A stretch of 64,000 nt of DNA from a virus: the IMG/VR virus record IMGVR_UViG_3300032288_003288; one strand, given 5' to 3'. Of this stretch, positions 42,017 to 56,268 are shown in pieces. The notes beneath the pieces are model-generated. The model saw only the letters and a program-made list of their open reading frames with translations. It was not told the DNA's origin and searched no databases. Made by a program: the position numbers and the translations under genes. The first letter of the stretch is position 1; every line of letters starts with the position of its first letter.

Positions 42017-42526
42017 TTATGCATCCTCCATCTCGTCAAGGAGAACGCGAAGTTCTCCATCATCCAGAGCAAACTGCCCATTAATAAGCTCCCACGAAGC
42101 GGTGTAGTTCTCACGACCAGCGGCAGGAACCATGACGTAGCTTTCAAACTTCGTCTTGATCTCACGACGCATCGAGCCACCGTATTCACCTGTGTTGTCG
42201 ATCTCACGACGAGCAACCCAGGTGCCATCGGAATAGAACAGGCGGAACGGAGTCTCCCATTCCTCACCCTCAGGAGCATCGTCGCTGACGACCTCGGCCG
42301 AGAGGATGTATTCCCGGAAGGACTCGTTGTTCTCTTCGATGAGAGAGGTGAGGGTAGGAATACCATCACGCTCAATACGAGCCTTCTGCGAGGGGGTGAT
42401 GTTATCGACCACGAAGGTCGAACCACCCTTGAACTTCCAACGCTGCGGGCATGCACCCCGACCGTCCCAATCATGGGCGCCGTAGTTTTCGCAGATCTGA
42501 GTGTTGATAACGAGCTTCATAACCAA
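42017..42526 (-). CDS. Conserved hypothetical protein
   Basis: TQICENYGAHDWDGRGACPQRWKFKGG; promoter 42545-42573. Confidence 0.75.
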   Translation of the reverse strand: MVMKLVINTQICENYGAHDWDGRGACPQRWKFKGGSTFVVDNITPSQKARIERDGIPTLTSLIEENNESFREYILSAEVVSDDAPEGEEWETPFRLFYSDGTWVARREIDNTGEYGGSMRREIKTKFESYVMVPAAGRENYTASWELINGQFALDDGELRVLLDEMEDA

Positions 42527-42583
42527 TCTCCGTGTTTATAATTCAATCTACACCACTTTTGAAAATAAGTACATGCCCTATTT

Positions 42584-43922: not shown

Positions 43923-44121
43923 CGTTCTCGTCCTTCTTACCGTTCAATACCTCAGCGGATTTCTCGAAGAAACGAGTACACTCTTGACATATCAAGACAT
44001 CATGAGTCCCGTCTGCTGTGTTTAGACGCAGCTCATGAAACTTCTCTGCATATGGACGCTTGGCCTGACATATTGGACACTCTTTCTTCTTTTCGCGGAA
44101 TAAGAATGGTATCATTTCCAA
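43906..44121 (-). CDS. Small Zn-finger protein
   Basis: CPIC...CQEC. Confidence 0.6.
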   Translation of the reverse strand: MEMIPFLFREKKKECPICQAKRPYAEKFHELRLNTADGTHDVLICQECTRFFEKSAEVLNGKKDENDDDAV

Positions 44122-45050
44122 GCTGCCTCCATCATGATCTCTGTCAGACAGCAGACCAGATTGATCTCTGCATCAGCGACAAAAGCATGCTGATACTGAT
44201 ACTTGCCGATGATCAAGATGACCAACGGTACGGAGTCCTTTTGTAAGTGCTGGCTGGCCTGATCGTAAAACTTACGATAGATGTCGCTGACATCGCTGTC
44301 TGTGTTCTCTGCAACCCACTTACGCATATTCGTAAAGTCGCGGTTCTTGAGATGATCGACCAGAGTCTTGAGAGACACTTCGCCGATGTTGATCAGGATG
44401 CCAGTGTCGATCTTGCCAGTGGCAGAGTAGCGCTGCAGTTCGTTGATCACTCGACGCCAGTCAGGGAAGTGGCGCTTGATCAGCTCTGCTACCACAGCCT
44501 TGTCAAACTCCACCTTCTCGGTCTGTAGGATGTTGCAGACACGAAGCATGAAAGACTTGGCCAGTTCAGGCAGCTCAGCCTTACGGATCTTGAAGTCTAC
44601 CACAGAACACCGAGAATGGAGAGGCTCGATGATGCGGTTCTTGAAGTTACACGTCAGAATGAAGCCGCAGTTCTTGCTAAACTCTTCCATGAAGTTGCGC
44701 AGAGCTGGCTGAGTAGAGTTGGCATTGAGATAGTCGGCCTCGTCGAGGATGACATACTTTCGACCGCCAGCCAGAGAGACTGACGATGCAAAGTTACGAA
44801 TCTCGTTGCGCAGCGTATCGATGTTGCCGTTCATCGAGCCGTTGATGACGATGTAGTCACATCCAAGCTCTTCGAGCATGGCACGTGCAACTGTGGTCTT
44901 GCCGATACCAGCAGGACCACTGAGCAGGAGATTAGGAATGTTCTTTTGATCTACGAACTGTTGGAATGTCTCCTTCAGTTCAGGCGTAAGGATCGTATCA
45001 GCGATCGTTTTAGGGCGATACTTTTCCACCCACAGGAATTCTTCTAGCAT
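44112..45050 (-). CDS. 44: Clamp loader ATPase gp44
   Basis: LWVEKYRP, GPAGIGKT, DEAD, SRC. Confidence 0.97.
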   Translation of the reverse strand: MLEEFLWVEKYRPKTIADTILTPELKETFQQFVDQKNIPNLLLSGPAGIGKTTVARAMLEELGCDYIVINGSMNGNIDTLRNEIRNFASSVSLAGGRKYVILDEADYLNANSTQPALRNFMEEFSKNCGFILTCNFKNRIIEPLHSRCSVVDFKIRKAELPELAKSFMLRVCNILQTEKVEFDKAVVAELIKRHFPDWRRVINELQRYSATGKIDTGILINIGEVSLKTLVDHLKNRDFTNMRKWVAENTDSDVSDIYRKFYDQASQHLQKDSVPLVILIIGKYQYQHAFVADAEINLVCCLTEIMMEAAWK

Positions 45051-45759
45051 TCTTCACTTCCTCCATAATATCATACTTAGGTTGCCAGCCTAAGCTCAAC
45101 AAAAGACTGGTGTCGGCGTGTGTCACGTCGCGTTCACCAGTAACACTCTTCATAGGCAGCTCTAGGCCATAGGCTTCGGCAACGTCTGCTACCTTTACAG
45201 GATTGCCTGTGCCAATGTCTATTGTACCACAAAGATCATGATTTGAAATGCATAATTCAATGGCATCACAAACATCTTTGACGTGTGTCCAGTCTCTGAG
45301 ATGGTCAGTCACATACTTGACTTTGCCGTTCAGCATCATGTCATAGAACATGTCTGGCCTGCTGTTATGCCCGTATACCGTATGGAATCTCATACCCAAT
45401 GAGTTTTCATTGGCAACTTCTTCCATTGCTTTCTTTGAAGCAGCATACGGGTTCAACCACCACTCGTAGACAGAGGACGAAGAGGCATACAGACACCGTA
45501 TACCTCTATCGTTGCACCAATCAAATATCTTCTTGGAAGCTGAGACGTTGACTTCCCAATAATCGTTGGGCATGTCCCAGCTTCTACGAACACCAGCCAA
45601 AGCAGCAAGATGCAACACCACGTCAGGGTTACCGAGATATTCTTTTCCCCAATCTCGAATGTCACCCTGATACAGTGTTACATCGTGCTTGTCTTTTAGA
45701 TGGCGCAGGACATTACGACCGATAAAGCCTTCGTGTCCAGTGATTAAGATATTCAGCAT
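45010..45759 (-). CDS. NAD-dependent epimerase/dehydratase
   Basis: TGHEGFIG, HLAA, ASSSSVY, YAASK. Confidence 0.9.
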   Translation of the reverse strand: MLNILITGHEGFIGRNVLRHLKDKHDVTLYQGDIRDWGKEYLGNPDVVLHLAALAGVRRSWDMPNDYWEVNVSASKKIFDWCNDRGIRCLYASSSSVYEWWLNPYAASKKAMEEVANENSLGMRFHTVYGHNSRPDMFYDMMLNGKVKYVTDHLRDWTHVKDVCDAIELCISNHDLCGTIDIGTGNPVKVADVAEAYGLELPMKSVTGERDVTHADTSLLLSLGWQPKYDIMEEVKNARRIPVGGKVSP

Positions 45760-46418
45760 CAGCCCTCGAACGTTGAGTTCTGCTCGACCGCAATCCAATA
45801 CTCTACGTCGACGCCCTTGAAGTAGCTCAGTGCCTTGGACGAGATCTCGACTTCATAGTCACCGGGCAGAAGCTTCATGTTCTCTGCACGGATGATCATC
45901 TTAAAGGTAGCAGCGGTAGGTCCAACTTCGACCGAGTAGACGTCGCCGCTCGGGTTCTTGCTGTCGACAGCTTGTAGGCAGATGGTATTGCCATCACCGA
46001 TCACAGCGATCTCAGGCAGACCGAGAGTGGACAGTGCCTTCATCACTTCTTGCAGATCGTCTGCGGTAACCTTGAAGCGAACCTCAGGATCAGGAAGCTT
46101 GATGTCCTTTTCAGGCGGCGCAACCACCAGTGAAGGTTCAGTGAACGTGTAGTTCAGCTTCTTCGAACCCTGTCGAATCTCCATGTACTTTTCCTGAATC
46201 TTGAATTCTGGATCAGAGAACAGCGAGACAGTGCTGAGGAAACGAGAGAGGTCATAGATGGCAAAGGTGCCAGGAAACTCTACAGCTGCCTTGGCCCGAG
46301 CCATGACGCTCTTCGAAGGATTGATAGTTGCCAGAGTGTTGCCTTCCTTGAATACGATGGAAGGATTGATGGAAGAAAAGTTCTTGAGAACCTGAATGGT
46401 GCGAGTGTCAAACTTCAT
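45759..46418 (-). CDS. 45: Sliding clamp gp45
   Basis: LKNFSSINPS, IYDLSRFL, YWIAVE. Confidence 0.95.
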   Translation of the reverse strand: MKFDTRTIQVLKNFSSINPSIVFKEGNTLATINPSKSVMARAKAAVEFPGTFAIYDLSRFLSTVSLFSDPEFKIQEKYMEIRQGSKKLNYTFTEPSLVVAPPEKDIKLPDPEVRFKVTADDLQEVMKALSTLGLPEIAVIGDGNTICLQAVDSKNPSGDVYSVEVGPTAATFKMIIRAENMKLLPGDYEVEISSKALSYFKGVDVEYWIAVEQNSTFEG

Positions 46419-46477
46419 AATATAGCTCCGTTGTTGCAATCTTCATAATATACTCAATATTTACAGCAATGTACATA

Positions 46478-47044
46478 CTATTCCAAAGGAGAATTAGATA
46501 GATGCACGAGAGTAGCGTCTTCTAATTCTTTTCGATAATCAAAGCAGTTGGCTGCCCAGTCATACCACAGTTCGCGACCTTGATAGTCGTGAATAATGAC
46601 ATGAGCTGATTCCTTGACCTTACGAGAAAGGAAGGCAGCGGTTGGACCACGACCGATGCCGTCTACCAAGAACACGTCGGCTGAAGTGATCAAGTCGATA
46701 TCTGGACAGATGTACTCCGACAGACCGCAACCCATCTCTTCTTCAGGCCGAGCATAGTAAGTGTTTCTAATTTCTGGAGGAATAAGCAAAAAGACGTGGC
46801 GATCGATGTTTGGATGGTCCTTGATCTTTTCGCTGATGGTATCATACCAGTCTTCTGTGTGTTCGATAGACACCAAAGTCTGGCCTTCTTTTAGATGATC
46901 TAGAAAATAGATGGTCGAGCCTCCGCATCCCCATTCTACGAGAGTGCCATCGTCTGGCAGTAGATCGAAGATATATCCCGGTTCTACTTCAGTCATCAGA
47001 AGCGTGGTTGGTCCACACGTCTTGGAATCATACTCAATAGCCAT
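46478..47044 (-). CDS. Class I SAM-dependent methyltransferase
   Basis: VEWGCGGST, SIEH...W, VDGIGR, IIHD. Confidence 0.8.
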   Translation of the reverse strand: MAIEYDSKTCGPTTLLMTEVEPGYIFDLLPDDGTLVEWGCGGSTIYFLDHLKEGQTLVSIEHTEDWYDTISEKIKDHPNIDRHVFLLIPPEIRNTYYARPEEEMGCGLSEYICPDIDLITSADVFLVDGIGRGPTAAFLSRKVKESAHVIIHDYQGRELWYDWAANCFDYRKELEDATLVHLSNSPLE

Positions 47045-47049
47045 AACGA

Positions 47050-47967
47050 TTACTTTCTGTTCTTAAGCTTAGCCAACTGTCCCGTGTTCTTCTGTACAGG
47101 TGCACCTACTCTGTTCTTCTTGATGGTCGAAACGTCTGCCGTAGCTGCAGCACCGATCTGTGCAAGATCTACCAGAGAGCCGCCGAATACGTACATCCCG
47201 ACGTGACTGAGTTGCATCCATGGGCAGAACCAGACTTTCATGCCAGCCTTACGTGTCCACTGACAGAACATGTAATCCTCTGACAGGTAGCGCTTGGTGT
47301 CAGGGCAGATAGGTGTGTCAAAGAATGCCATGATCTCCCGACTGCCGTCAAAGTGTTCAGTGCGAACGTGATCAGGCTTGTACATCTGTTCAGGATATGC
47401 TTCTTGAAACTTCTCGAAGGTGTTACGACGGATCATCATGAATCCAGTGCCAGCTTCAAGAACTTCGACAGGACGGTCGAGTGGGATCTGAGTGACGCCA
47501 GCCGCAGGGTTGAACACATAGTCGCCTACATACTTTTCGAGGTTGTTTGCATTTTCGTCAGCAAATCCCTTATCGACAGCATGCTTGATCTTTTCCCAGC
47601 TGATACACTTCTTGGGATAGGGACCAGCAATGATGTCATACTCGTCCTCGGTAGGATCTTGACTCTGCAGAGCAAGAAGAGCGATTACATCCTGGGCGTT
47701 AAAACCGATGTCAGAGTCGATGAACATCAAGTGAGTGTCACCAGACCGCATAAACTCATCTGCGCAGTAGTTGCGAGCTCGAGTAATTAGAGACTCATTG
47801 AACAAGAAGTAGAAGCGAACCTGAATGCCGTAGCTGGTACAGAGCGCCGAGAGGTCGGCGATGGAGCGAGTGAACATGCCGGCACACTGACCGCCATACA
47901 TAGGCGCAGCTAAGAATAGCTTACGCTCACGTAGCTTCTCGATAGGTACAGTAATTTCAATTCCCAT
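47050..47967 (-). CDS. GT-A-fold glycosyltransferase-like protein
   Basis: PMYGG, NESLITRARN, FIDSDI (DxD), GTGFM, YLSEDY. Confidence 0.8.
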   Translation of the reverse strand: MGIEITVPIEKLRERKLFLAAPMYGGQCAGMFTRSIADLSALCTSYGIQVRFYFLFNESLITRARNYCADEFMRSGDTHLMFIDSDIGFNAQDVIALLALQSQDPTEDEYDIIAGPYPKKCISWEKIKHAVDKGFADENANNLEKYVGDYVFNPAAGVTQIPLDRPVEVLEAGTGFMMIRRNTFEKFQEAYPEQMYKPDHVRTEHFDGSREIMAFFDTPICPDTKRYLSEDYMFCQWTRKAGMKVWFCPWMQLSHVGMYVFGGSLVDLAQIGAAATADVSTIKKNRVGAPVQKNTGQLAKLKNRK

Positions 47968-47969
47968 GA

Positions 47970-48317
47970 TTAGTCCTTTTTGTTTTCAAGATCATGAACA
48001 TGTAGTTGGATGATTGCGTAGTGAATGACCTTGAGAAGGTCCTTACGCCAGTCTTTTGGATTCCCTTTGTGCCCGTATCGTTGAGCGTACTTCAATACGT
48101 TTCCGATACAGAAACCAGTGCCGTGACCGCCGTCGATGATAAACTCTGTGGCCTGATACTTGTTTTGGGAGTAGTGCTCACCGTAGGTGGCGTTGATATA
48201 TTCTGTGATTTCGCGAAGGAGCTTGCCTTCATTGTATTTATAATCGATTTCTGAAAGACTGTACAATTCTTTCTCTACGCTTTCAAGATGTTTCGTCAAG
48301 GTTTCACTCCTGATCAT
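47970..48317 (-). CDS. DUF3310-like nucleotide-modification-associated protein
   Basis: GFCIGNVLKYAQRYGHK...DLLKVIHY. Confidence 0.7.
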   Translation of the reverse strand: MIRSETLTKHLESVEKELYSLSEIDYKYNEGKLLREITEYINATYGEHYSQNKYQATEFIIDGGHGTGFCIGNVLKYAQRYGHKGNPKDWRKDLLKVIHYAIIQLHVHDLENKKD

Positions 48318-49354
48318 GAAAAAAAGTCCTCTAAGGTTGCTGGTTTCTGTTCAGATAGACCTGACCACTTACGGCCTTGCCAGTGTGGATACGATGCTCT
48401 AGATAGGTGCACTGACTTCGGCTTTTCCATACACTCAAAGTCAAGTTCTCCCTTATCATTCATCAGATAGTCGACCCACTCGATAAGGTTGACACTGCTT
48501 GTAGCACACAGTTTCTTCATCTCGTCCTTGAAGATGAGGCGCACAGTCTCACGACTTGCCCAGTCTCCATAGAAAGGTGTGCCTTTGTAGTAGCCAGTCT
48601 TCGGGAGTACGCGAGACTCATTCTCGATAGGAAGCAACTCATACACAGATACTTCTTCTGCGTCAAGCTTGACCAGCTGGTCGTGATAGCGATTCACTAG
48701 ATCTCGAGTCGCTTGCTCAGGATTTGATTGTCGCATGAGATGATGGCGTACGTCGATGTTGCCAAAATAGAATTCAACGAGTCTGTGATGCGGTTCGATA
48801 AAGGTACTTAGACCTTCCTTCAATGCGCCATGTAGAGTCTTAAAAGGCACAGAGTTGACATGCCAACCAGGCCGATACATGCAAATAGCGTGACTGTCTC
48901 CAGCCACGGCACGATTGACACACTCGATTTCCTTGATGGTTTGCGACGTATTCTCGATACGCTTTAGATTTTCCCAGTCGACCTTGTGCCAGTCAGGATG
49001 AATGTCGCCCTTCAAACGGGGCTCGAGCATCTCGCTGTACTTAGGATGGTCGATCCACAGAGAGTAGACAGTTTTTGAAGGATCGATCTTTGAGAAACGA
49101 ATTAGATTGTCGATGTTACCATAATTTTTCATACCACCGAAAAGATTCAATGAACCGAACCAATCGTTGCCATGATACACGTAGATAGCATCGAACGAGT
49201 TGATATCAGGATGAATGTCACCTGTCCTATCAAGATGCACATGACCACCGTTTTCTGTAGAAATCTGCTCTGCGTAGATGGCAGCCTGTGCTGCCCTATG
49301 AGAGTGGATGTTAGAGGAAACAGGTGTAAATGGAGATGTAATCAAAGACTTCAT
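48314..49354 (-). CDS. Modification-cluster protein with an SGNH-like C-terminal domain
   Basis: GDSH, FGNIDVRHHL, SVHLS. Confidence 0.55.
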   Translation of the reverse strand: MKSLITSPFTPVSSNIHSHRAAQAAIYAEQISTENGGHVHLDRTGDIHPDINSFDAIYVYHGNDWFGSLNLFGGMKNYGNIDNLIRFSKIDPSKTVYSLWIDHPKYSEMLEPRLKGDIHPDWHKVDWENLKRIENTSQTIKEIECVNRAVAGDSHAICMYRPGWHVNSVPFKTLHGALKEGLSTFIEPHHRLVEFYFGNIDVRHHLMRQSNPEQATRDLVNRYHDQLVKLDAEEVSVYELLPIENESRVLPKTGYYKGTPFYGDWASRETVRLIFKDEMKKLCATSSVNLIEWVDYLMNDKGELDFECMEKPKSVHLSRASYPHWQGRKWSGLSEQKPATLEDFFS

Positions 49355-50229
49355 AGATTTTTATCCCAATCACGATAAGATTCAACACGGTCATAGATCG
49401 TAGGATCTTGAAGGACTGGTTCTTTTCCTACGTTCCAGAACAGTATATCACGTTTTGTGTTTTTTGGAATGTATTTCCAAACTTTTCCGTCGTATGTATC
49501 GATACACGGGAAAGGAGGCATGTTCTCGGGCTTTTCTTGAGAAGTAAACGCCAACGGTTCTGAGATGACTTCTTCGACTCGGCCTGCCTCACCGGCCTTA
49601 AGGTTACGAGCAACAGCCACACTGTGGAACTTGGCGTTTGGCCATGCAATCTGCAATGCCCGGCTCAGGACACCAGTGGAGATGGCTACGTATACCTCTT
49701 CGGGCTCTTTGATCTTGGATGCGGCGTGTACGATGCCTGCTGTGGCCAACTCATGCTTTAGTCCGAGTGGAACGAAGAGAGCATTGTTCTCTTCTGCATA
49801 CTGCTTGGCATACAGATTCAAGTTAGGCATGGCAGCGATACGCTTGAAGATAGGAATGGCACCTTGCTCGATGCAACATGCCTGATGCAGTGATATAGTC
49901 TTACAAGCTGGCATGAAGAGGATGATCTTCTTGTTATGATTACGAGCTACGTCCAACAGAGAAACGCCAGCCAGTCCAGTGCGTGGCTGCGAGTAGACGA
50001 TAGTGCTGTAGTTGGACTTAGATGCCAACAAGTCTCCAGCTCGTGTCTTTGTGCCTACAATAAGATCGTCACGAACAACTCTAACACCATCATGGACAGT
50101 AACCACAGGATCCGGGTTATAGGGGAACCATCCTTCGGCAAGAGACAGATAGTATTCCTTCGCGCCTTCCCATCCATAGATGCCGACATCCTTGTTGTAA
50201 CCATCGAGTACGTGTTTGTTATGTGCCAT
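49351..50229 (-). CDS. PLP-dependent (fold type II-like) enzyme
   Basis: VRDDL..GTKTR (PLP Lys), STGVL, YDGKVW, LFWNVG. Confidence 0.8.
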   Translation of the reverse strand: MAHNKHVLDGYNKDVGIYGWEGAKEYYLSLAEGWFPYNPDPVVTVHDGVRVVRDDLIVGTKTRAGDLLASKSNYSTIVYSQPRTGLAGVSLLDVARNHNKKIILFMPACKTISLHQACCIEQGAIPIFKRIAAMPNLNLYAKQYAEENNALFVPLGLKHELATAGIVHAASKIKEPEEVYVAISTGVLSRALQIAWPNAKFHSVAVARNLKAGEAGRVEEVISEPLAFTSQEKPENMPPFPCIDTYDGKVWKYIPKNTKRDILFWNVGKEPVLQDPTIYDRVESYRDWDKNL

Positions 50230-51227
50230 TAATTCAGCCTGTCATATTGATTGGTGCGAAGCGACCACTCGTTAGGATATACCCAATCATAAGGAATCTG
50301 TGCGGTCTGAGACTTTACACCAAACTTCACAGCCATGTATTTGTAGTGCATGCAAAGCTTGTCTTCGAGGTTCAGGTACTGATGAGTATGAATAGGATTT
50401 GAAGGATGAGACTTGAGGTAGTTCATGTGTTCTACCTGCATCTTGGCTGCATCGTTCAACGGAACATACTCGCCGAACTCGTTGATCTCGTACTTACTCT
50501 TACTCATGAGATTAGGGCAATCAAACACTTGACTGAGACCATCAAAGTAGCCTGTGCCTCCATGAAGGAACGAGTCAGGATCTGCCCATTCCGGATGACT
50601 CATTGCCACATGTCGAGCCGCGTTCTTACAAGGATACATGGCATTCCTAAAGCCATAGTCTCTGACGAAGATCTCGTTCAGCGTCTTGGCTAATTCCATC
50701 ATTGTATACGGCCTGTTCAGAGAAGTAAATACTTTCTCTGAATGTTTTTCAGCAAAATCTTTGGGAACCTCACAAATCCATTCCTTGACATTGGTATCCT
50801 TTGGATAGTATATCTGGAACAAGTCATTACGAGCATGCCGTTCAGTCAAGAAACGCTGTCGCATGGCATCTGCGCTGCCAGCTCGCCATGAACGGAATGT
50901 CTGCCAATGTTCGTTAGTGAAAGAGAATACGAGGCATGCTTCTAGCACCGTCTGAGGATCTGATATCTGAATGACCTCATCCACGAACGGACATTCATGC
51001 CAGTGGAGTCGGTGACTAAACTGCTGATAGTTGTCACGAAGCAACGAGTCTCTGCGCATGTCATACTCACGACAGAACTCGAAGAACTTCTCAGTCCGTT
51101 CTTCCTGAGTCCAATCTTTCATCCATGACCGCTTAGGCTTACCCTTCTCGTCGTACTCTACCTCTGCGATGTTAGGATACTTTATGTCATGCTCGTAATC
51201 GCCGAGCATCTCAGCCAAGTAGTTCAT
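50229..51227 (-). CDS. Amino acid:DNA transferase-like (aGPT-Pplase, HhH-like) protein
   Basis: GGTGYFDGL...LEDKLCMHYKY; similar to the neighbouring ORF. Confidence 0.55.
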   Translation of the reverse strand: MNYLAEMLGDYEHDIKYPNIAEVEYDEKGKPKRSWMKDWTQEERTEKFFEFCREYDMRRDSLLRDNYQQFSHRLHWHECPFVDEVIQISDPQTVLEACLVFSFTNEHWQTFRSWRAGSADAMRQRFLTERHARNDLFQIYYPKDTNVKEWICEVPKDFAEKHSEKVFTSLNRPYTMMELAKTLNEIFVRDYGFRNAMYPCKNAARHVAMSHPEWADPDSFLHGGTGYFDGLSQVFDCPNLMSKSKYEINEFGEYVPLNDAAKMQVEHMNYLKSHPSNPIHTHQYLNLEDKLCMHYKYMAVKFGVKSQTAQIPYDWVYPNEWSLRTNQYDRLN

Positions 51228-52365
51228 TCACTTTTGCCTTATACTCGTCTACGCTCATGCCTACTTGCTTGAGAACAGCGTCGTCTGATGGATGGGCAGT
51301 CATGCCGTTGAAAGTCTTTACGAGACCAAGATCTAGCATCGGCTTCTGACGACCGAACGGATGGTCCTTGATTCGACAACTTGACCAAACAGAGTCGAAG
51401 CAGAGATGGTCGTAGTCGGATCCAGGCTTGACGTAATTTTCTACCCAACGAATGAAGTCACAGCACACATCTTCTGCGTTATAGGGAAATGCACCAGTGT
51501 CTGCATAGATCTGTTCCATAACTGTATCGAGGAACTTTTCCTTCTGCAGCTTCTTGGTATTGATGCCAAGATACGAGATACATTCCACTGCATTCGTTCC
51601 GTAATAGAACGGGCTCTCGAGGTTTACGTACTGTGGATACCAATCGGCGATGTCTGCAACGAATGCTGCATACTGAAAGCGATACACTCTCAGACCATGG
51701 CGTGTATTCCAATCGAATAGCCACTCGCCGATCTCGCGTAGATCCTTTTTGGCGTTACTTTGTTCGAGCCACTCTGCAAGTTCACGACACAGTTTAGGCG
51801 CAAACTCGCTGAGATAGTAGTCTCCGCCTCGCTTATAGTTGGTGCCAGCTGGAATCTTGGGGAAAGATGGGAACTGGTAACCTACAGACGTGTAGAATGG
51901 ATGAGGATAGTGGTTGATAAAACGAACCATCTCCTCGATCGTACGAAAGTTGTACAGATGAGGCAGCACAGTGTTGTGATATCCACTGGGCTTCTGTGAG
52001 TAGTTGATACCTGAACCGGTCACACGATGCAGCAGGAATACATACAGCCATTCAGGCAACTTGAAGTCTGCGTGCTTACCAGTCCAGTCTGTGGCAATCT
52101 GCTTGCGCTGACGAGTGTGGATGCCCTGTTCCATCTTATGGAAGTATGGATGTTCAGGTGTCCAGCCATAGAACACGTCGTTGACGATCTGCGAGAAGCC
52201 AGCAAACTTGCGTTCGACAACGTCATAGAGCTCTACGTTCTCCATAAGGTCGTCGTTCATGTTTGATTCTAGATACGGCACAGTGCCAAGGTTACACTTT
52301 GCCTGTTGATCTTTGGCCAGATGAAAGTAGCGGATGTACTCGTCGTAGTACTTAGTCTGTTCCAT
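51211..52365 (-). CDS. Amino acid:DNA transferase-like (aGPT-Pplase, HhH-like) protein
   Basis: FQYAAFVADIAD...GTNA...AEDVCCDFIRW. Confidence 0.6.
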   Translation of the reverse strand: MEQTKYYDEYIRYFHLAKDQQAKCNLGTVPYLESNMNDDLMENVELYDVVERKFAGFSQIVNDVFYGWTPEHPYFHKMEQGIHTRQRKQIATDWTGKHADFKLPEWLYVFLLHRVTGSGINYSQKPSGYHNTVLPHLYNFRTIEEMVRFINHYPHPFYTSVGYQFPSFPKIPAGTNYKRGGDYYLSEFAPKLCRELAEWLEQSNAKKDLREIGEWLFDWNTRHGLRVYRFQYAAFVADIADWYPQYVNLESPFYYGTNAVECISYLGINTKKLQKEKFLDTVMEQIYADTGAFPYNAEDVCCDFIRWVENYVKPGSDYDHLCFDSVWSSCRIKDHPFGRQKPMLDLGLVKTFNGMTAHPSDDAVLKQVGMSVDEYKAKVNELLG

Positions 52366-52768
52366 GGATATATGCTCTCAATCGTTCTATCAAATCCAGC
52401 TCGTACTGTCGAGAATTCAAATTCCTATTCCGCGGAGAAGGATGATCAATTTTTAGGTGAGGTATATTATACTTATAGCAGATTTTGGAGACTACTCCAC
52501 CGAGTGCAATGATTTTTTTGCGGCTCTTTGTTTTCTCTAAAAGGAGATCTACGTTGACCATACTAGGATGCATGCCATTGACTACGTCTGGTATGACGTT
52601 ATGAAAGTCCCATTCTGTCAGACCAACTTCATCACACCAACTCTTGAGACGAGCAAATGTGCCGTTCTTGAAAGGCACAGTCTTGGAAGACGGCGAAAGT
52701 CCGAGGATGATTATGTCCTCGGACCTCCGATGATTTTCAATAAAGTCAGGTACAGATTTAAGCCGCAT
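52352..52768 (-). CDS. Uracil-DNA-glycosylase-superfamily-like protein
   Basis: LGLSPS, IIALGG, HPSPRN. Confidence 0.7.
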   Translation of the reverse strand: MRLKSVPDFIENHRRSEDIIILGLSPSSKTVPFKNGTFARLKSWCDEVGLTEWDFHNVIPDVVNGMHPSMVNVDLLLEKTKSRKKIIALGGVVSKICYKYNIPHLKIDHPSPRNRNLNSRQYELDLIERLRAYIHGTD

Positions 52769-52949
52769 TGCGAATCTTTTGCAAGACAGAATCTACGCGC
52801 TCTTCTACCCATTGACAGGAACCATCTACCATAGACACACCAGTTCCTAGAACATTACCTAGCGCATCTTTTCTTTCAAAAATCTTGGTAATATGAGCTA
52901 CATTAAAATAGGCAGCTTGGCCTACTACATCGAGATATATAAAATGCAT
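52758..52949 (-). CDS. Small hypothetical protein
   Basis: ORF within the operon. Confidence 0.55.
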   Translation of the reverse strand: MHFIYLDVVGQAAYFNVAHITKIFERKDALGNVLGTGVSMVDGSCQWVEERVDSVLQKIRNAA

Positions 52950-52950
52950 A

Positions 52951-53598
52951 TTACTTCACCTTATCAAAGTGGCGCTCATATACATGGAGAGAGCCAACGT
53001 TCCAAATAATCTTGCGAGAGCCAAGACCTAGAGCAGTTTGCAACAGACTAGCCACATGGTCTTGCCATGCCCAGTCATTGCGATAGCCGAACACTACGTC
53101 ATTGCTACGCATCTGAACGACTGCAATGAGTTGGTCACCACGAATCATGTACTGCACCGCATTGGTACACATGAAGTCAGACATGCCATTGCGATTATAG
53201 TCGAGCCACATCGAAGGACGAGTGTAGATCATGATGGCACGCCGGCTGTTTGGATTTTGAGTCAGTTCGTTGTAGACTTTCCAATACTGAGCACCGTTGT
53301 CGTCAGACCAGATACACCAACCATAGTTTGAGTTGATGAAGCCGTCCTTGTCAGCCACCTGTTTCCAGATCTGAGGAACAGGAGCAGGGATATCATTGAC
53401 GTTGAGAGACTTGGACTTATACCAACTAAGCTCGCGTTCGACGTAGTCTTCGTTGATCTCGCCGAAGATGGTAGGCTCATCTGCTTCGAAGCTCTGACCA
53501 ATCAATTCGATAGTTTTAACGCCAGTCTTGTCAGTTACAAATCGTTCACACCGCAGTTCTTCAATGAAGTATTCGCGGATATGTTCTACCTTAAGCAT
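52951..53598 (-). CDS. 42: Thymidylate-synthase-fold dCMP hydroxymethylase-like (gp42-like)
   Basis: NSNYGW, SRRA, DFMCT, MRSNDVVFGYRNDWAWQ, SLHVYERHF. Confidence 0.85.
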   Translation of the reverse strand: MLKVEHIREYFIEELRCERFVTDKTGVKTIELIGQSFEADEPTIFGEINEDYVERELSWYKSKSLNVNDIPAPVPQIWKQVADKDGFINSNYGWCIWSDDNGAQYWKVYNELTQNPNSRRAIMIYTRPSMWLDYNRNGMSDFMCTNAVQYMIRGDQLIAVVQMRSNDVVFGYRNDWAWQDHVASLLQTALGLGSRKIIWNVGSLHVYERHFDKVK

Positions 53599-53998
53599 TC
53601 AAGTCATCTCCAAACTGATCATCGACTGCAGTAGTCGACTTACCGGCTGCAGAGGTAGTCTTTATCGGTCGATTGAGAAAGTCTCGACTAGGATCTTGAC
53701 CGTCCATCTTGCCACGACAGTATGAGACCACGAACGAGGCGTAGTTGATCAGATCTTTGGCCGAATCTTCGATCGACTCGAAGTTGGGAGTGTAGGTCGG
53801 ATCTTTTTCCATTGCCTCGATCACTGACTGCATGCGCAGAGTCTTGGCATAGATGAGATCAAGGATGGTGGCTACGCCACGCGGATAGTAGTCAGCTTGA
53901 CGAATGCGAGACGCTTCGTTCTGGTAGTCTTTAGACTTCTTGAGCTGGACTTCAGCACATTCTTGCAGGACTTTGATTGATTCACGTTCTTTAGACAT
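53591..53998 (-). CDS. Nucleotide-modification-associated helical protein (DUF1599-like)
   Basis: KKSKDY...ESIEDSAKDLINY. Confidence 0.7.
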   Translation of the reverse strand: MSKERESIKVLQECAEVQLKKSKDYQNEASRIRQADYYPRGVATILDLIYAKTLRMQSVIEAMEKDPTYTPNFESIEDSAKDLINYASFVVSYCRGKMDGQDPSRDFLNRPIKTTSAAGKSTTAVDDQFGDDLNA

Positions 53999-54464
53999 AT
54001 TCTTCTACCTTTTCAATTTTATTGAAATCGAACCGATCATTACCATTACGCTTTATGTGTTCTAAAGCGAGCTTGGCGTCGACAACACCAAGTATAGTAT
54101 ACTCAACTTCGTCATTTAAGTACAACCTTTTATAGCCATTTGTCCATTTCCAGACAACAAGATTTTTGATTCTGCCTGCAGCTATCTGCTTTTGGATCCA
54201 CGGACTAACATGAACTCCTTCTTGCGAATACAACTTATAGTCTAAAGTTTCTAAATCTTCATGCGTTGTGTCGAAAGTGGCACCTTCATGAAGAGTCTGT
54301 TTCGGATCGATCTCACATTGGTGATGTTCTGGAAATTCACATTCTACGCCGAATATTCCACGAGTATAATCTGCCGCCTTACGATTGCAGTGATCTATAA
54401 ACTTTTGATTGACTGTTCCCTTGTATCTTCCTACAAGGAGTTTGGTTCTAGCGATCATAATCAA
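53991..54464 (-). CDS. Hypothetical protein, possible PD-(D/E)XK nuclease
   Basis: E...FD...LDYK pattern; AT-rich. Confidence 0.45.
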   Translation of the reverse strand: MIMIARTKLLVGRYKGTVNQKFIDHCNRKAADYTRGIFGVECEFPEHHQCEIDPKQTLHEGATFDTTHEDLETLDYKLYSQEGVHVSPWIQKQIAAGRIKNLVVWKWTNGYKRLYLNDEVEYTILGVVDAKLALEHIKRNGNDRFDFNKIEKVEEYV

Positions 54465-54724
54465 ATGCTCCGGTAATGTTTATCCCAGGATGAATCAGTC
54501 ACTCGCAGGCCCTGAGAAGCCAAGTAAGGACGCCACATCGACTCGCAGACGTATGCCGATGTGTTGGCATTTTGGATGTCATATGTGAGACGATTGACTG
54601 CAGCCTTTTGACGAACAGTCTTGGTCGGGAATGTGGCAATAATCTCCAGAGCCTTGGATTTGGCTTCCGCTAAGGGAAGCTTGTCCAGGCTCTGGAGCAC
54701 GGCGAGTTGATCGTCTTTGGTCAT
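54461..54724 (-). CDS. Early hypothetical protein
   Basis: Promoter 54753-54781. Confidence 0.65.
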   Translation of the reverse strand: MTKDDQLAVLQSLDKLPLAEAKSKALEIIATFPTKTVRQKAAVNRLTYDIQNANTSAYVCESMWRPYLASQGLRVTDSSWDKHYRSI

Positions 54725-54797
54725 GATGTAGCTTTCTCCAATTGATATACTAACTATACATCAAAAAGAGAAATATGTACATGTCTTATTTTCGTAA

Positions 54798-55199
54798 TTA
54801 AATCAAAGCCTTGAGATTACCATGGTTACCTTCATGGCTGGGAGCTTGCCATCCCTCAGGCTTGATGAGGTCTGGGAGACCGAGGGGATTAGGCCGACTG
54901 GCCTTGACGCCTACCTGCTTGTTCATGTTGGCATCGAGGACTTCGTTCCATGCCCGATGACTGTCGATATCAAAGGCATCGAGGGTGCCGATAGCAACGA
55001 CGCAGAGGTCGATCAGAGCATCTACGATTTCCTCGGGGTTGTTCATGTTTGACTTAAGCTCGTCGAGTTCCTCCTGAAGGAAGTCTACACGAAACTGCAG
55101 GAACTGCTTGAGTTTGTCTGCATCTAGCTTCTTGATTGCCTCATGCACGCCGTAGTGCTTGTGCATGTCATTGATATCTTGAACCCAATTCTGTGACAT
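54798..55199 (-). CDS. All-alpha dNTP pyrophosphatase (MazG/gp56-like dCTPase-dUTPase)
   Basis: EELDE, EIVDALIDL, ANMNK, KPEGW. Confidence 0.8.
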   Translation of the reverse strand: MSQNWVQDINDMHKHYGVHEAIKKLDADKLKQFLQFRVDFLQEELDELKSNMNNPEEIVDALIDLCVVAIGTLDAFDIDSHRAWNEVLDANMNKQVGVKASRPNPLGLPDLIKPEGWQAPSHEGNHGNLKALI

Positions 55200-55256
55200 T
55201 TGCGTCTCCAATGTTGATCATGTTATAGTACGCTGACTTTTTGATAAAGTACATGC

Positions 55257-55811
55257 TTAATCGGTAAACCACTTAAGTAGTTGTTCCTGATCCTTATTTA
55301 GTGGTCCCTGTGTCTTCTTGGCAATGCGAGCGATCTTTTTCTGCTGCTTCTTGGCAGCCTCAAGATGGAAGCGATTGGCCCGAGAAGTAAACGCGATGCC
55401 ATCCAGATGATCTAGCTCATGCTGAAATACTCGCGATGTCATGCCATCCAAGCGACGAGTTACGATGTTGCCGTCCGGAGTGGTATAACGAACACGAATG
55501 ACGCGAGGTCTCTTTACTTTGACAAAGAGATTTGGATAGGAGAGACAACCTTCTTCGAGGTAGATCTGTTCATTTCCATATGCTGTGACGATTGGATTGA
55601 AGCATCCTATGATCTCTTGACTACGAATAGCAAAGGCTCTGTAAGGTAGGCCGATCTGAGGAGCTGCCACTCCCAGAGCATCAGTCTTTTGAATGACTTC
55701 ACCAAGAAGGTTGTATAGTTCCACCGGATTCATTGGTGGATTGTTGAAGTCAAATCTCTCTGTACCTTCCTTGAGAACGGGATCGTTACAGTCTACTAGT
55801 TCTCTAATCAT
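55257..55811 (-). CDS. def: Peptide deformylase
   Basis: GVAAPQIG, EGCLS, QHELDH. Confidence 0.95.
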   Translation of the reverse strand: MIRELVDCNDPVLKEGTERFDFNNPPMNPVELYNLLGEVIQKTDALGVAAPQIGLPYRAFAIRSQEIIGCFNPIVTAYGNEQIYLEEGCLSYPNLFVKVKRPRVIRVRYTTPDGNIVTRRLDGMTSRVFQHELDHLDGIAFTSRANRFHLEAAKKQQKKIARIAKKTQGPLNKDQEQLLKWFTD

Positions 55812-56014
55812 AATCTGTCTTCCTTAATCATCCTACCCAAGTCACGTTGCAGTGTGGTGAAGAATCCATTCTTACCCACAGCAGACACGCGAATCTTTTC
55901 TAGATCTTCTAGGTTGTCGCATCGCTCGATGAGGTGACCATAGACGTCTCTAATCACATCGATCTGATCGACAAGTTGTTTAGGTGTCATGCTGCAATCC
56001 TGCTCTTTAACCAC
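55808..56014 (-). CDS. Small protein resembling the PheRS-alpha N-terminal coiled coil
   Basis: LEDLEKIRVSAVGKNGFFT. Confidence 0.55.
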   Translation of the reverse strand: MVKEQDCSMTPKQLVDQIDVIRDVYGHLIERCDNLEDLEKIRVSAVGKNGFFTTLQRDLGRMIKEDRL

Positions 56015-56268
56015 TTAGTATAATCTTCTGCGAAGTTTGGGCTTCGCATCCACTTATATGTGGCATAGTTGCATGGGCCTTCTGCCCACGATCTCCAACT
56101 ATAATGCCTGCGCTTACCTCGACCCCAAAGAATGAAACCGTACTTAGTTATCTCAAGTCTATATTTGTGTACACCCTTTCCACAAGGTGACACAAACACG
56201 TATGGGTGAAACAATCCTCGGGCCTTGAAGCGTATATAATGGTAAGCATATTTAAGGCGCATAATCAC
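55987..56268 (-). CDS. Hypothetical protein
   Basis: Coupled ORF. Confidence 0.5.
   Translation of the reverse strand: MIMRLKYAYHYIRFKARGLFHPYVFVSPCGKGVHKYRLEITKYGFILWGRGKRRHYSWRSWAEGPCNYATYKWMRSPNFAEDYTKWLKSRIAA

What the first reader, a model, noticed from the sequence alone, without database searches (positions are those of the whole stretch)
45010..55199. Candidate new cytosine hypermodification pathway
Seen: a TS-fold enzyme with MRSNDVVFGYRNDWAW lies in one block with two related HhH-like transferases (50229-52365), a PLP enzyme and an SGNH-like protein. The block also has DUF3310-like and DUF1599-like proteins, a GT-A glycosyltransferase, a methyltransferase, an epimerase, a UDG-like protein and a gp56-like dNTPase. 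Known: T4 gp42 has Asp at the specificity position (recalled motif FRNDYAW), which selects dCMP, whereas dUMP enzymes have Asn. aGPT-Pplase transferases with PLP enzymes are characterised on 5-hmdU (ViI, M6, phiW-14) and need a 5-hmU DNA kinase, which I do not see in this window. Inference: amino-acid and/or sugar chemistry is installed on hydroxymethyl- or hydroxy-cytosine rather than thymidine.
Basis: partly seen in the sequence, partly recalled or inferred. Interest (0 to 1): 0.8.

Follow-up and report, generated by a model that had tools for sequence, protein, structure and literature searches.

The report
Kinase-less hydroxymethylcytosine DNA hypermodification cassette
An uncultured T4-like phage makes T4's hydroxymethylcytosine, but instead of T4's sugar-adding enzymes it carries relatives of the enzymes that attach amino acids to thymine in other phages, so its DNA probably holds a cytosine decoration that nobody has yet described chemically.

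Summary
On the minus strand, 47970-55199 is a tightly packed block. It encodes a true T4 gp42 orthologue (63% identical) whose active-site residues match the 5-hydroxymethyl-dCMP type, not the 5-hydroxy-dCMP type. It also encodes two distant paralogues (X2 at 51211-52365, X1 at 50229-51227). Both have a helix-hairpin-helix glycosylase-like fold, and their best solved-structure match is the amino acid:DNA transferase PaMx11 gp46. Next come a PLP enzyme homologous to the M6 gp52 DNA-base decarboxylase and a protein with an SGNH-type motif set.

New here:
- In other phages, including cultured Aeromonas phages 44RR2.8t and 31, the SGNH protein is fused to an X2-like domain.
- Its N-terminal part resembles the DNA-binding half of T4 beta-glucosyltransferase.
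- No 5-hmU DNA kinase was found in the window, in five related contigs or in the complete 44RR genome.
- gp42, X2, the PLP enzyme and the SGNH protein stay together in 23 metagenomic loci; X1 is optional.

- The GT-A-like gene belongs to the phage backbone.
- The methyltransferase-like and epimerase genes are not conserved parts of the block.
- The "gp56-like" protein is MazG-type.

Best reading: a post-replicative, amino-acid-type modification of 5-hmC in which an acyl-enzyme replaces the kinase. The chemistry is inferred. This scan met the same cassette on at least 29 other genomes. I found no paper that describes it.

The parts
54798..55199 (-). MazG/PRA-PH-type NTP pyrophosphohydrolase. 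Possible dCTP-clearing enzyme, analogous to T4 gp56 but not homologous to it.
   Evidence: PF01503 E 1.5e-7. No BLASTP similarity to T4 gp56. Lies upstream of gp42 in 11 related loci. Its role is inferred.
53591..53998 (-). DUF1599-like protein (nucleotide modification associated domain 1), function unknown.
   Evidence: PF07659 E 0.0028, below the cut-off. phrog_1485 E 1e-12. Directly upstream of gp42 in 13 related loci.
52951..53598 (-). gp42 orthologue: dCMP hydroxymethylase (5-hm-dCMP synthase).
   Evidence: 63% identical to T4-type gp42. PDB 1B5D E 6e-85, with GMSDFMCTN and MRSNDVVFG(Y/F)RND(W/Y)AW aligned. Residues at the ThyA positions: L143->D, C146 kept, D169 kept, N177->D. Read against PMC13326640.
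52352..52768 (-). Small conserved protein with a weak UDG-superfamily match, role unknown.
   Evidence: PF03167 E 0.0023, below the cut-off. No PDB sequence match. Present between gp42 and X2 in 7 related loci.
51211..52365 (-). X2: HhH-glycosylase-fold protein of the ADDT/HMUDK_hel superfamily with a conserved Glu298-x3-Cys302. The universal core of the cassette.
   Evidence: AF2 pLDDT 96. Best PDB match by VIA-align is 8Z2N, PaMx11 gp46 PUGT: Z 10.0, 211 residues, rmsd 4.0; HhH glycosylases follow. Atlas fold TM 0.73 to a viral cluster in which 11% of members carry PF18723. hhalign to the M6 gp55 family E 3e-4 to 1e-3, with the E-x3-C motif aligned. 942 homologues. No direct Pfam hit.
50229..51227 (-). 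X1: distant paralogue of X2 with the same fold and Glu288-x3-Cys292. An optional member, present in 7 of 21 loci that extend past X2.
   Evidence: hhalign X1 family against X2 family 95.7%, E 9e-9. AF2 pLDDT 90. Top Foldseek hit 8Z2N, prob 0.96, E 0.08. VIA-align Z 10.2, 220 residues, rmsd 3.9. Invariant E288, D289, K290 and C292.
49351..50229 (-). Fold-type II PLP enzyme, homologous to the M6 gp52 / ViI gp226-type decarboxylases that act on amino acids attached to DNA bases.
   Evidence: phrog_7093 E 3e-35. M6 gp52-family HMM E 2e-6. hhalign 96.7%, E 3e-10 over 217 columns. Invariant Lys61 (GTK) aligned with the gp52 S-K. The domain is fused to a DNA methylase in Erythrobacter phage R6L.
48314..49354 (-). 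Two-part protein: an N-terminal part like the DNA-binding half of T4 beta-glucosyltransferase, and a C-terminal SGNH-type part (Ser154, Gly176, Asn199, His316). Proposed to stand in for the kinase.
   Evidence: Invariant GDSH, G176, GNID and S314-x-H316. 5 of 21 family members hit PF09198 (best E 5.5e-4) and 2 of 21 hit Lipase_GDSL. N-terminal profile against T4 BGT: hhalign 68%, E 4.7e-5, NLFGG aligned with NFFGG. Fused to an X2-like domain in 7 metagenomic proteins and in Aeromonas phage 44RR2.8t ORF233c.
47970..48317 (-). DUF3310 protein, function unknown. Often linked or fused to nucleotide kinases in phages.
   Evidence: PF11753 E 1.3e-10. phrog_480 E 3.5e-29, plus nucleotide-kinase phrogs through the DUF3310 part. 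Follows the SGNH gene directly in 9 related loci and lies further downstream in 2 more.
47050..47967 (-). GT-A-like protein (phrog_1574). Probably a backbone gene rather than part of the cassette.
   Evidence: No Pfam or PDB hit. 66% identical to a DLP6 protein that sits between the deformylase and gp45 in a phage without the cassette.
53991..54724 (-). Two small unknown ORFs (155-157 aa and 87 aa) between the MazG-like and DUF1599-like genes.
   Evidence: No family hit. The 157-aa one has weak homologues in L023 and L024.

Best explanation
The block is a DNA hypermodification cassette that acts on 5-hydroxymethylcytosine.

Step 1 (strongly supported by homology): the gp42 orthologue makes 5-hm-dCMP. 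With a dCTP-clearing pyrophosphatase and a dNMP kinase encoded elsewhere, hm-dCTP replaces dCTP during replication.

Step 2 (inferred): the two-part protein at 48314-49354 binds hmC in DNA through its beta-glucosyltransferase-like N-terminal part. Its SGNH-type Ser/His centre esterifies the hydroxymethyl group. This would play the part that the 5-hmU DNA kinase plays in thymidine pathways.

Step 3 (inferred from fold and motif): X2 works with it, and the two are fused in other phages. X2 is an HhH-fold relative of the amino acid:DNA transferases. It uses its Glu-x3-Cys pair to attack C6, expel the leaving group and add a nucleophile, most likely an amino acid. X1 is an optional second transferase-like paralogue.

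Step 4 (inferred from homology): the M6 gp52-like PLP enzyme then decarboxylates or otherwise trims the attached amino acid. That leaves an amine-bearing side chain on cytosine, which shields the DNA from host nucleases.
For: - gp42 identity and active-site residues: read against PMC13326640.
- X1 and X2: high-confidence models. Their best solved-structure match is the amino acid:DNA transferase PUGT (8Z2N) at Z 10.0 and 10.2, followed only by HhH glycosylases. Language-model and fold neighbours include clusters in which a minority of members (10-50%) carry PF18723 or PF18724.
- Glu-x3-Cys: nearly invariant in the X2 family and invariant in the X1 family. It aligns with the same motif of the M6 gp55 family. 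In M6 gp51 (E243/C247) and ViI gp247 both residues are essential (PMC8989533), and Cys247 is the proposed C6 nucleophile in PUGT (PMC11472151).
- PLP enzyme: homologous to the M6 gp52 family over nearly its full length, with the Lys conserved.
- SGNH blocks and likeness to the BGT N-terminal half.
- Fusion evidence: seven fused SGNH::X2 proteins and Aeromonas phage 44RR2.8t ORF233c.
- Conserved neighbourhood: X2+PLP in 21 of 21 loci that extend far enough, SGNH in 20 of 20, and gp42 upstream in 16 of 17.
- An independent contig carries a fused SGNH::X2 gene, a PALP enzyme, a dCMP-type TS homologue and a dUTPase_2-like gene side by side.
- No 5-hmU DNA kinase in the window, in five related contigs up to 101 kb, or in the complete 44RR genome.
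Against: - No chemistry has been measured; every post-replicative step is inferred.
- X1 and X2 do not reach any Pfam model. Only 1 of 60 X2 relatives touches PF18724, at E 0.001.
- Profile-profile links to the M6 gp55 family are modest (E 3e-4 to 1e-3, probability 22-40%), and those to the M6 gp51 family are not significant.
- Foldseek E-values are only 0.08-0.7. Z about 10 is within the range that helical proteins can reach by chance, according to the tool's own note.
- The SGNH assignment rests on motifs and weak hits. The Asp of the usual D-x-x-H block is absent, and I could not fold the protein.
- An SGNH enzyme may hydrolyse rather than transfer, and no acyl donor is evident.
- About 94 kb of this genome was not available, so a kinase or a glycosyltransferase elsewhere cannot be excluded.
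- Aeromonas phages have the fused enzyme but no PLP enzyme, so the product may differ between lineages.
Confidence: 0.6

Rival explanations
1. The cassette stops at a simple ester or another small, non-amino-acid group on 5-hmC (for example acetyl, as carbamoyl is added in 5-carbamoyloxymethylcytosine). The HhH proteins would serve as DNA-binding or base-flipping partners. The PLP enzyme would make or process a small-molecule donor instead of acting on DNA.
For: - SGNH enzymes are typically esterases or O-acyltransferases (established knowledge), and the SGNH blocks are invariant here.
- Aeromonas phages carry the fused enzyme without a PLP enzyme.
- O-carbamoylation of hmC is a known precedent (PMC8670742).
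- The role of the clade-1 HMUDK_hel protein in M6 is unproven (PMC8989533).
Against: - The Glu-x3-Cys pair that is catalytic in the amino acid:DNA transferases is conserved in X1, X2 and the fused forms.
- The PLP enzyme is homologous specifically to the decarboxylases that act on DNA-bound amino acids, and it is fused to a DNA methylase in another phage.
- The PLP gene is present in all 21 loci that extend past X2.
Confidence: 0.17
2. The real target is thymidine after all. hm-dCMP or hmC would be deaminated to the 5-hmU form, and the cassette would build a known type of T derivative.
For: - All characterised ADDT and PLP pathways act on 5-hmU (PMC8989533).
- Notes from this scan report a dCMP deaminase beside gp42 in some related cassettes (not checked here).
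- A weak UDG-like gene sits in the block.
Against: - Every gp42 homologue linked to the cassette has the dCMP-type Asp and is close to T4 gp42.
- No 5-hmU DNA kinase was found in the window, in related contigs or in the complete 44RR genome.
- None of the ORFs I put through the family libraries matched a dCMP deaminase. That covers the cassette and its flanks and the larger ORFs elsewhere, but only about 40 of the window's ~105 ORFs.
- The N-terminal part of the SGNH protein resembles the hmC-binding half of T4 beta-glucosyltransferase.
Confidence: 0.06
3. The hmC is mainly glycosylated, as in T4 or RB69, by the GT-A-like protein with a sugar made by the epimerase. The X1, X2, PLP and SGNH genes would then do something else, for example repair, anti-defence, or degradation of cytosine-containing host DNA by true HhH glycosylases.
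For: - A GT-A-like gene and an NAD-dependent epimerase lie nearby.
- X1 and X2 share the fold of DNA glycosylases.
- The X2 family has an invariant Asp238.
Against: - The GT-A-like gene is at the same place in DLP6, which lacks gp42 and the cassette at this locus.
- The epimerase is missing from nearly all related loci.
- The GT-A-like protein has no detectable DNA-glycosyltransferase relatives.
- The tight, repeated linkage and the fusions among gp42, SGNH, X2 and PLP point to one pathway.
Confidence: 0.1

Closest known systems
Thymidine hypermodification pathways of phages M6, ViI, PaMx11, PhiW-14 and SP10 (dUMP hydroxymethylase, 5-hmU DNA kinase PF18748, amino acid:DNA transferase PF18724, HMUDK_hel PF18723, PLP decarboxylase)
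   Same: - The modified nucleotide is made by a TS homologue before replication and elaborated on DNA afterwards.
[quoted passage not shown]
- A homologous fold-type II PLP enzyme.
   Different: - The base is cytosine (gp42 type) rather than uracil.
- No P-loop DNA kinase was found. A beta-glucosyltransferase-N-like/SGNH protein takes the linked, and elsewhere fused, position.
- X1 and X2 fall outside the Pfam models.
- No radical-SAM, FAD or acetyltransferase partners.
- The product is unknown.
T4 hydroxymethylcytosine glucosylation (gp42, gp56, gp1, alpha- and beta-glucosyltransferase)
   Same: - Orthologous gp42 (63% identical).
- The modifying genes lie next to gene 42, as beta-gt does in T4.
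- The N-terminal part of the SGNH protein resembles the DNA-binding half of beta-glucosyltransferase.
   Different: - No UDP-glucose-binding half and no alpha-gt or beta-gt.
- A MazG-type pyrophosphatase instead of gp56.
- The added enzymes are transferase-like HhH proteins and a PLP enzyme.
Arabinosylated 5-hydroxycytosine of RB69 and DLP3 (PMC13326640)
   Same: A T4-like phage with a gp42-like TS homologue and no T4 glucosyltransferases. It resolves the same kind of old puzzle that Petrov et al. raised for RB69, JS98 and Aeromonas phages 44RR, 31 and 25.
   Different: - Those enzymes carry Asn at the ThyA-D169 position and make 5-hydroxy-dCMP. This one keeps Asp, as T4 does.
- No arabinose pathway genes are seen here.
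5-carbamoyloxymethylcytosine (dCMP hydroxymethylase plus carbamoyltransferase; PMC8670742)
   Same: A gp42-type enzyme paired with a non-sugar group transfer onto the hydroxyl of 5-hmC. It was also found through metaviromes.
   Different: - No carbamoyltransferase here.
- This cassette has several enzymes, with an HhH transferase-like protein and a PLP enzyme.

Membership tests
T4 gp42-type dCMP hydroxymethylase (thymidylate synthase superfamily) | Full-length homology to T4 gp42 and the TS fold | tested here: met
   63% identity over 98% of the protein. PDB 1B5D E 6e-85. PF00303 E 3e-18.
T4 gp42-type dCMP hydroxymethylase (thymidylate synthase superfamily) | Catalytic Cys (ThyA C146); Asp at ThyA N177 (dCMP choice); acidic residue at ThyA L143 (lets water in) | tested here: met
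   GMSDFMCTN and RNDWAW align residue for residue with T4 gp42. Criteria taken from PMC13326640.
T4 gp42-type dCMP hydroxymethylase (thymidylate synthase superfamily) | Asp kept at ThyA D169 (Asn there marks 5-hydroxy-dCMP synthases) | tested here: met
   MRSND, as in T4. The same holds in all 16 cassette-linked homologues, in 44RR and in L083. Rule from PMC13326640.
T4 gp42-type dCMP hydroxymethylase (thymidylate synthase superfamily) | Measured conversion of dCMP to 5-hm-dCMP | not testable with these tools
   Needs an enzyme assay.
Amino acid:DNA transferase (Pfam PF18724 ADDT, aGPT-Pplase clade 2) | Match to the family profile above its cut-off | tested here: not met
   No hit for X1 or X2 even at E 10. 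1 of 60 X2 relatives hits at E 0.001. hhalign to the M6 gp51 family E 0.013-0.6.
Amino acid:DNA transferase (Pfam PF18724 ADDT, aGPT-Pplase clade 2) | HhH-glycosylase-like fold like that of PaMx11 gp46 (PUGT) | tested here: met
   8Z2N is the top match for both models: Z 10.0 over 211 residues at rmsd 4.0, and Z 10.2 over 220 residues at rmsd 3.9. All further matches down to about Z 3.5 are HhH DNA glycosylases, plus the related queuine-salvage enzyme DUF2419 for X1. Foldseek itself is not significant (E 0.08-0.7).
Amino acid:DNA transferase (Pfam PF18724 ADDT, aGPT-Pplase clade 2) | Conserved catalytic Cys with a Glu four residues before it | tested here: inconclusive
   Motif present and conserved: X2 E298/C302, X1 E288/C292. 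It has the same spacing as M6 gp51 E243/C247. It aligns to the M6 gp55 family motif. Residue-level structural equivalence to PUGT Cys247 could not be read out.
Amino acid:DNA transferase (Pfam PF18724 ADDT, aGPT-Pplase clade 2) | Works on a base activated by a 5-hmU DNA kinase (PF18748) | tested here: not met
   No kinase in the window, in five related contigs or in the complete 44RR genome. The rest of this genome was not available.
HMUDK_hel (Pfam PF18723, aGPT-Pplase clade 1) | Match to the family profile | tested here: inconclusive
   No direct Pfam hit for X1 or X2. hhalign of the X2 family to the M6 gp55 family E 3e-4 to 1e-3, probability 22-40%. The C-terminal part of 44RR ORF233c hits PF18723 at E 0.0036. 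In the nearest Atlas clusters 10-49% of members carry PF18723.
HMUDK_hel (Pfam PF18723, aGPT-Pplase clade 1) | Linked or fused to the enzyme that activates the hydroxymethyl group | tested here: inconclusive
   The domain is fused to the SGNH-type protein in 7 metagenomic proteins and in Aeromonas phages. However, the partner is not a kinase, and its activity is unknown.
M6 gp52 / ViI gp226-type PLP-dependent decarboxylase of DNA-bound amino acids | Homology to the family, with the PLP-binding Lys | tested here: met
   hhalign 96.7%, E 3e-10, 217 columns; invariant Lys61 aligned with the gp52 S-K. HMM E 2e-6. phrog_7093 E 3e-35. P0004 itself has no Pfam PALP hit, but the L083 homologue has one.
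M6 gp52 / ViI gp226-type PLP-dependent decarboxylase of DNA-bound amino acids | Decarboxylation of an amino acid attached to a DNA base | not testable with these tools
   Needs reconstitution.
SGNH/GDSL hydrolase-acyltransferase superfamily | Blocks I (GDS), II (G), III (GxND) and V (DxxH) | tested here: inconclusive
   GDSH 152-155, G176, GNID 198-201 and S314-x-H316 are invariant in 20-21 sequences. The block V Asp is not evident. Only 2 of 21 members hit PF00657, best E 0.014. No PDB sequence match.
T4 beta-glucosyltransferase (PF09198) | N-terminal, DNA/hmC-binding half | tested here: inconclusive
   hhalign 68%, E 4.7e-5 (residues 26-100 against BGT 24-98). hmmsearch E 5e-5. 5 of 21 members hit PF09198, best E 5.5e-4. 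A profile search of PDB sequences did not find BGT.
T4 beta-glucosyltransferase (PF09198) | C-terminal UDP-glucose-binding half | tested here: not met
   The C-terminal part carries SGNH-type blocks instead. The match to BGT ends at about residue 100.
T4 gp56 dCTPase/dUTPase | Sequence homology to T4 gp56 | tested here: not met
   BLASTP finds nothing (E 28). The protein is PRA-PH/MazG-type.

The most novel reading that the evidence does not exclude
Phages have a second, kinase-free way to activate a hydroxymethylpyrimidine in DNA. A chimera of the hmC-binding half of beta-glucosyltransferase and an SGNH acyl-enzyme esterifies 5-hmC. A Cys-dependent HhH transferase then displaces that ester with an amino acid, and a PLP enzyme decarboxylates the amino acid. 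The result would be an aminoalkyl-substituted cytosine, for example a cytosine counterpart of ViI's 5-(2-aminoethoxy)methyluracil. This would be both a new natural DNA base and the first DNA-base O-acyltransferase. It would be widespread in environmental T4-like phages, and a shorter form would be present in cultured Aeromonas phages.
Probability: 0.3. Interest if true: 0.88.

Novelty: new variant of a known kind. Interest (0 to 1): 0.78.

Why it matters
All characterised amino-acid-type DNA hypermodifications sit on thymine and start with a DNA kinase. Known cytosine hypermodifications are sugars, carbamoyl, or carboxymethyl derivatives. This cassette would extend amino acid:DNA transferase chemistry to cytosine and would show a different activation step.

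It is common. The X2 family has 942 homologues at 90% clustering, on phage-sized contigs from several sources.

It also offers an answer to a question open since 2010: what Aeromonas phages 44RR, 31 and 25 do with their hydroxymethylcytosine, given that they have genes 42 and 56 but no glucosyltransferase (PMC2993671). Those phages are cultured, so the prediction can be tested directly.

New DNA-modifying enzymes of this kind are also useful tools for labelling 5-hmC. They bear on restriction, CRISPR resistance and the sequencing biases of environmental phage DNA.

Tried and rejected
- Direct family searches of X1 and X2 (Pfam at E up to 10, PHROGs, NCBIfam) gave nothing useful.
- tblastn of X1 and X2 against 50,697 phage records gave no match. 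The whole region gave no DNA match.
- BLASTP of X1 against X2, and of each against M6 gp55 or gp51, was not significant.
- Profile searches of PDB sequences with the X2, SGNH and SGNH-N alignments found nothing relevant.
- Foldseek against PDB gave no match at E <= 0.001 for either model.
- The fused long proteins gave no Pfam domains.
- The window's own genome is not held, so genome-wide searches for a kinase, thyX/td, a dNMP kinase or a dCMP deaminase were impossible. About 94 kb of the roughly 158 kb scaffold stayed unseen.
- A search for PF09198 in a T4 variant record found nothing and its control also failed, so it is uninformative. I used the T4 reference beta-gt instead.
- The sigma-70 promoter and terminator scan of 44000-56500 was not above chance.
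- PDB sequence searches of the GT-A-like, PLP, methyltransferase-like and UDG-like proteins gave nothing.
- Iyer et al. 2013 could not be read.
- I considered the 5-hydroxycytosine reading and rejected it, because Asp is kept at the ThyA-D169 position.
- I considered the GT-A-like, methyltransferase-like and epimerase genes as cassette members and rejected them on the comparative evidence.

Full report
**What the window is.** The finding lies in a T4-like phage genome. Clamp loader gp44 (44112-45050), sliding clamp gp45 (45759-46439) and the gp46 recombination nuclease subunit (56265-57980) frame it. The gene calls on the source scaffold add gp47, UvsW, UvsY, gp62 and RegA. By gp46, the nearest cultured relatives are Stenotrophomonas phage DLP6 (52%) and T4-like cyanophages (47%). 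The region has no DNA match among 50,697 phage records. The sequence matches a 158 kb metagenome scaffold. No whole genome is held for it.

**The observation.** From 55199 down to 47970 they overlap or abut, and no terminator-like site is predicted on that strand. The TS-fold enzyme (52951-53598) is a plain orthologue of T4 gp42. It is 63% identical over 98% of its length and matches PDB 1B5D at E 6e-85. The active-site stretches GMSDFMCTN and MRSNDVVFGYRNDWAW align almost letter for letter with T4.

**Which base gp42 makes.** A 2026 paper showed that some gp42-like enzymes, RB69's among them, make 5-hydroxy-dCMP. It gave Asn at the ThyA-D169 position as the diagnostic residue. Asp at N177 selects dCMP, and an acidic residue at L143 goes with hydroxymethylation (PMC13326640). 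The enzyme here has Asp at all three positions, as T4 does. It should therefore make 5-hydroxymethyl-dCMP, not 5-hydroxy-dCMP. The same pattern holds in all 16 homologues linked to the cassette in other loci, in Aeromonas phage 44RR2.8t, and in an unrelated contig.

**The two 'HhH-like transferases'.** X2 (51211-52365) and X1 (50229-51227) have no Pfam, PHROG or NCBIfam match and no tblastn match in cultured phages. BLASTP sees no likeness between them. Their family profiles are related, though. hhalign gives 95.7%, E 9e-9, and the X2 HMM picks X1 out of the window's ORFs at E 4e-4.

Both fold with high confidence: pLDDT 96 and 90. Foldseek gives no significant PDB match. Re-alignment puts the same entry first for both: 8Z2N, the 5-phosphomethyl-dU glycinyltransferase gp46 of phage PaMx11, an amino acid:DNA transferase. 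The scores are Z 10.0 over 211 residues at rmsd 4.0 for X2, and Z 10.2 over 220 residues at rmsd 3.9 for X1. Below it, down to about Z 3.5, come only helix-hairpin-helix DNA glycosylases, plus the related queuine-salvage enzyme DUF2419 for X1. Language-model and fold neighbours in the ESM Atlas are viral clusters in which a minority of members (10-50%) carry PF18723 (HMUDK_hel) or PF18724 (ADDT).

Both families keep a Glu four residues before a Cys: X2 E298/C302 and X1 E288/C292. hhalign lines this motif up with the same motif of the M6 gp55 family, at E 3e-4 to 1e-3. In M6 gp51 the equivalent pair is E243/C247. Both residues are essential in M6 gp51 and ViI gp247 (PMC8989533). Cys247 is the proposed C6 nucleophile in the PaMx11 structure (PMC11472151). 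I therefore place X1 and X2 in the ADDT/HMUDK_hel superfamily as new, divergent branches. They are not members of either Pfam family.

**The PLP enzyme.** The protein at 49351-50229 is homologous over nearly its whole length to the M6 gp52 family, the decarboxylases that trim amino acids already attached to DNA bases. hhalign gives 96.7%, E 3e-10 over 217 columns. Lys61 (GTK) is invariant and aligns with the PLP lysine position. In Erythrobacter phage R6L the same domain is the C-terminal part of a DNA methylase. That fits a role on DNA.

**The SGNH protein is the key new piece.** Twenty-one relatives share invariant GDSH, Gly, GNID and Ser-x-His blocks, which is the SGNH pattern apart from the block V Asp. 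Two members touch the GDSL Pfam model, best E 0.014. Five touch the T4 beta-glucosyltransferase model, best E 5.5e-4. A profile of the N-terminal 145 residues aligns with residues 24-98 of T4 beta-glucosyltransferase, NLFGG against NFFGG. hhalign gives 68%, E 4.7e-5, and hmmsearch gives E 5e-5. This is moderate evidence that the N-terminal part derives from the half of that enzyme which, by established structural work, holds the DNA and the flipped-out hmC.

Seven metagenomic proteins of 640-790 residues are fusions of this protein with an X2-like domain. So is ORF233c (795 aa) of the cultured Aeromonas phage 44RR2.8t. Its C-terminal part hits PF18723 weakly (E 0.0036) and carries GCEIACCQF, close to X2's AEDVCCDF. 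Thirty-eight Aeromonas T4-like phages have this gene.

**Gene neighbourhood.**
- Among 23 IMG/VR loci found with X2, the PLP gene follows in all 21 that extend far enough.
- The SGNH gene is present in all 20 that extend far enough.
- gp42 lies upstream in 16 of 17 loci with more than 1 kb of upstream sequence.
- X1 is present in only 7.
- A quite different contig carries, side by side, a fused SGNH::X2 gene, a PALP enzyme, a dCMP-type TS homologue and a dUTPase_2-like gene.

**No kinase.** An HMM of the M6 gp54 kinase family finds nothing in the window. Only gp44, gp46 and a helicase-like ORF have a P-loop. PF18748 is absent from five related contigs of up to 101 kb and from the complete 44RR2.8t genome. 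About 94 kb of this phage's own genome could not be searched, so the absence is likely but not proven.

**What does not belong.** The GT-A-like gene (47050-47967) is 66% identical to a DLP6 gene at the same backbone position, between the deformylase and gp45. DLP6 has no cassette there. The protein has no recognisable glycosyltransferase match. The methyltransferase-like gene occurs in none of the related loci, and the epimerase in one, at a different position. The MazG-type pyrophosphatase shows no similarity to T4 gp56. It often precedes gp42 in related loci and could clear dCTP. The UDG-like and DUF1599-like calls rest on weak Pfam scores.

**Most likely mechanism.**
- Homology supports this much: hm-dCMP synthesis by gp42, and hence hmC in the DNA.
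- The remaining steps are inferred. The beta-glucosyltransferase-N/SGNH protein binds hmC in DNA and esterifies its hydroxyl.
- X2 uses its Cys/Glu pair to expel that group and add a nucleophile, probably an amino acid. X2 is its partner, and the two are fused elsewhere.
- The PLP enzyme then decarboxylates the attached amino acid.
- X1 is an accessory paralogue.

I give this general reading 0.6. The main rival is a simpler ester on hmC, with the PLP enzyme acting off DNA (0.17). Next come a sugar route (0.1) and a thymidine target (0.06).

**Comparison with what is known.** The cassette works like the thymidine pathways of M6, ViI and PaMx11. It differs in three ways: it starts from the T4-type cytosine derivative, it lacks the kinase, and it uses divergent transferase-like proteins. 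Petrov et al. noted in 2010 that Aeromonas phages 44RR, 31 and 25 have genes 42 and 56 but no glucosyltransferase, and that their modification is unknown. The fused enzyme found here is a concrete candidate.

Full-text searches found no paper that links SGNH, ADDT-like or PLP enzymes to hydroxymethylcytosine. The same scan has noted this cassette on at least 29 other genomes, and follow-up reports reached similar readings. I used two of their leads: the esterase in place of the kinase, and the beta-glucosyltransferase-like N-terminal part. I tested both here.

**Verdict.** The cassette is a new variant of a known kind of system, and it can be tested in cultured phages.

Noticed in passing
L070:5408-9388 (Aeromonas phage 44RR2.8t, NC_005135 160422-164402): The fused SGNH::HhH gene ORF233c lies directly after a phage-encoded sodium:solute symporter (PF00474, E 6e-53). 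A phage transporter beside a DNA-modification enzyme might import its co-substrate.
   Followed up: partly
L076 (Erythrobacter phage vB_EliS_R6L gp1, across the record start): A protein annotated as a DNA modification methylase carries a C-terminal domain homologous to the cassette's PLP enzyme (29% identity, E 7e-23). Microcystis phage Mae-JY30 has the same arrangement. This may be another unstudied DNA modification route.
   Followed up: partly
window 55808-56014 and 55257-55811: A 60-68 aa ORF with a weak match to the N-terminal arm of PheRS alpha (PF02912, precomputed) sits just upstream of a phage peptide deformylase (PF01327, E 5e-33).
   Followed up: no
window 39186-39779 and 46478-47044: Two small Methyltransf_24-like proteins (E 7.5e-7 and 0.0034). 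The second lies between the GT-A-like gene and gp45 and is absent from all 23 related loci.
   Followed up: partly
window 40001-42000: G+C rises to 0.555 against about 0.47 elsewhere in the window. The ORFs there are on the plus strand, against the prevailing direction, and two of them (41334-41882, 41879-42541) have no Pfam match.
   Followed up: no
window, 10 sites (for example 4491, 10356, 23307, 48235, 62872): TATAAATA, the T4 late-promoter box, occurs 10 times against 1.27 expected; 9 of the 10 are on the coding minus strand. One copy (48235-48242) lies inside the DUF3310 gene, about 270 nt before the GT-A-like gene.
   Followed up: partly
window 6097-6708, 25883-26578, 27406-28062, 21425-22606: Other auxiliary genes: a cytidylyltransferase-like protein (E 7e-7), an FkbM-type methyltransferase (E 1e-5), a redoxin/AhpC-type protein (E 2e-25), and an endolysin-like protein that combines a peptidase M15 domain with a GH19 domain.
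   Followed up: no
L075 (Stenotrophomonas phage DLP6, KU682439 21000-36000): DLP6 keeps the same backbone order: gp47, gp46, deformylase, GT-A-like gene, DsbA, gp45, gp44. It has other genes, including an SNF2 protein, where this window has the cytosine cassette. The site looks like a hot spot for exchangeable modules.
   Followed up: partly
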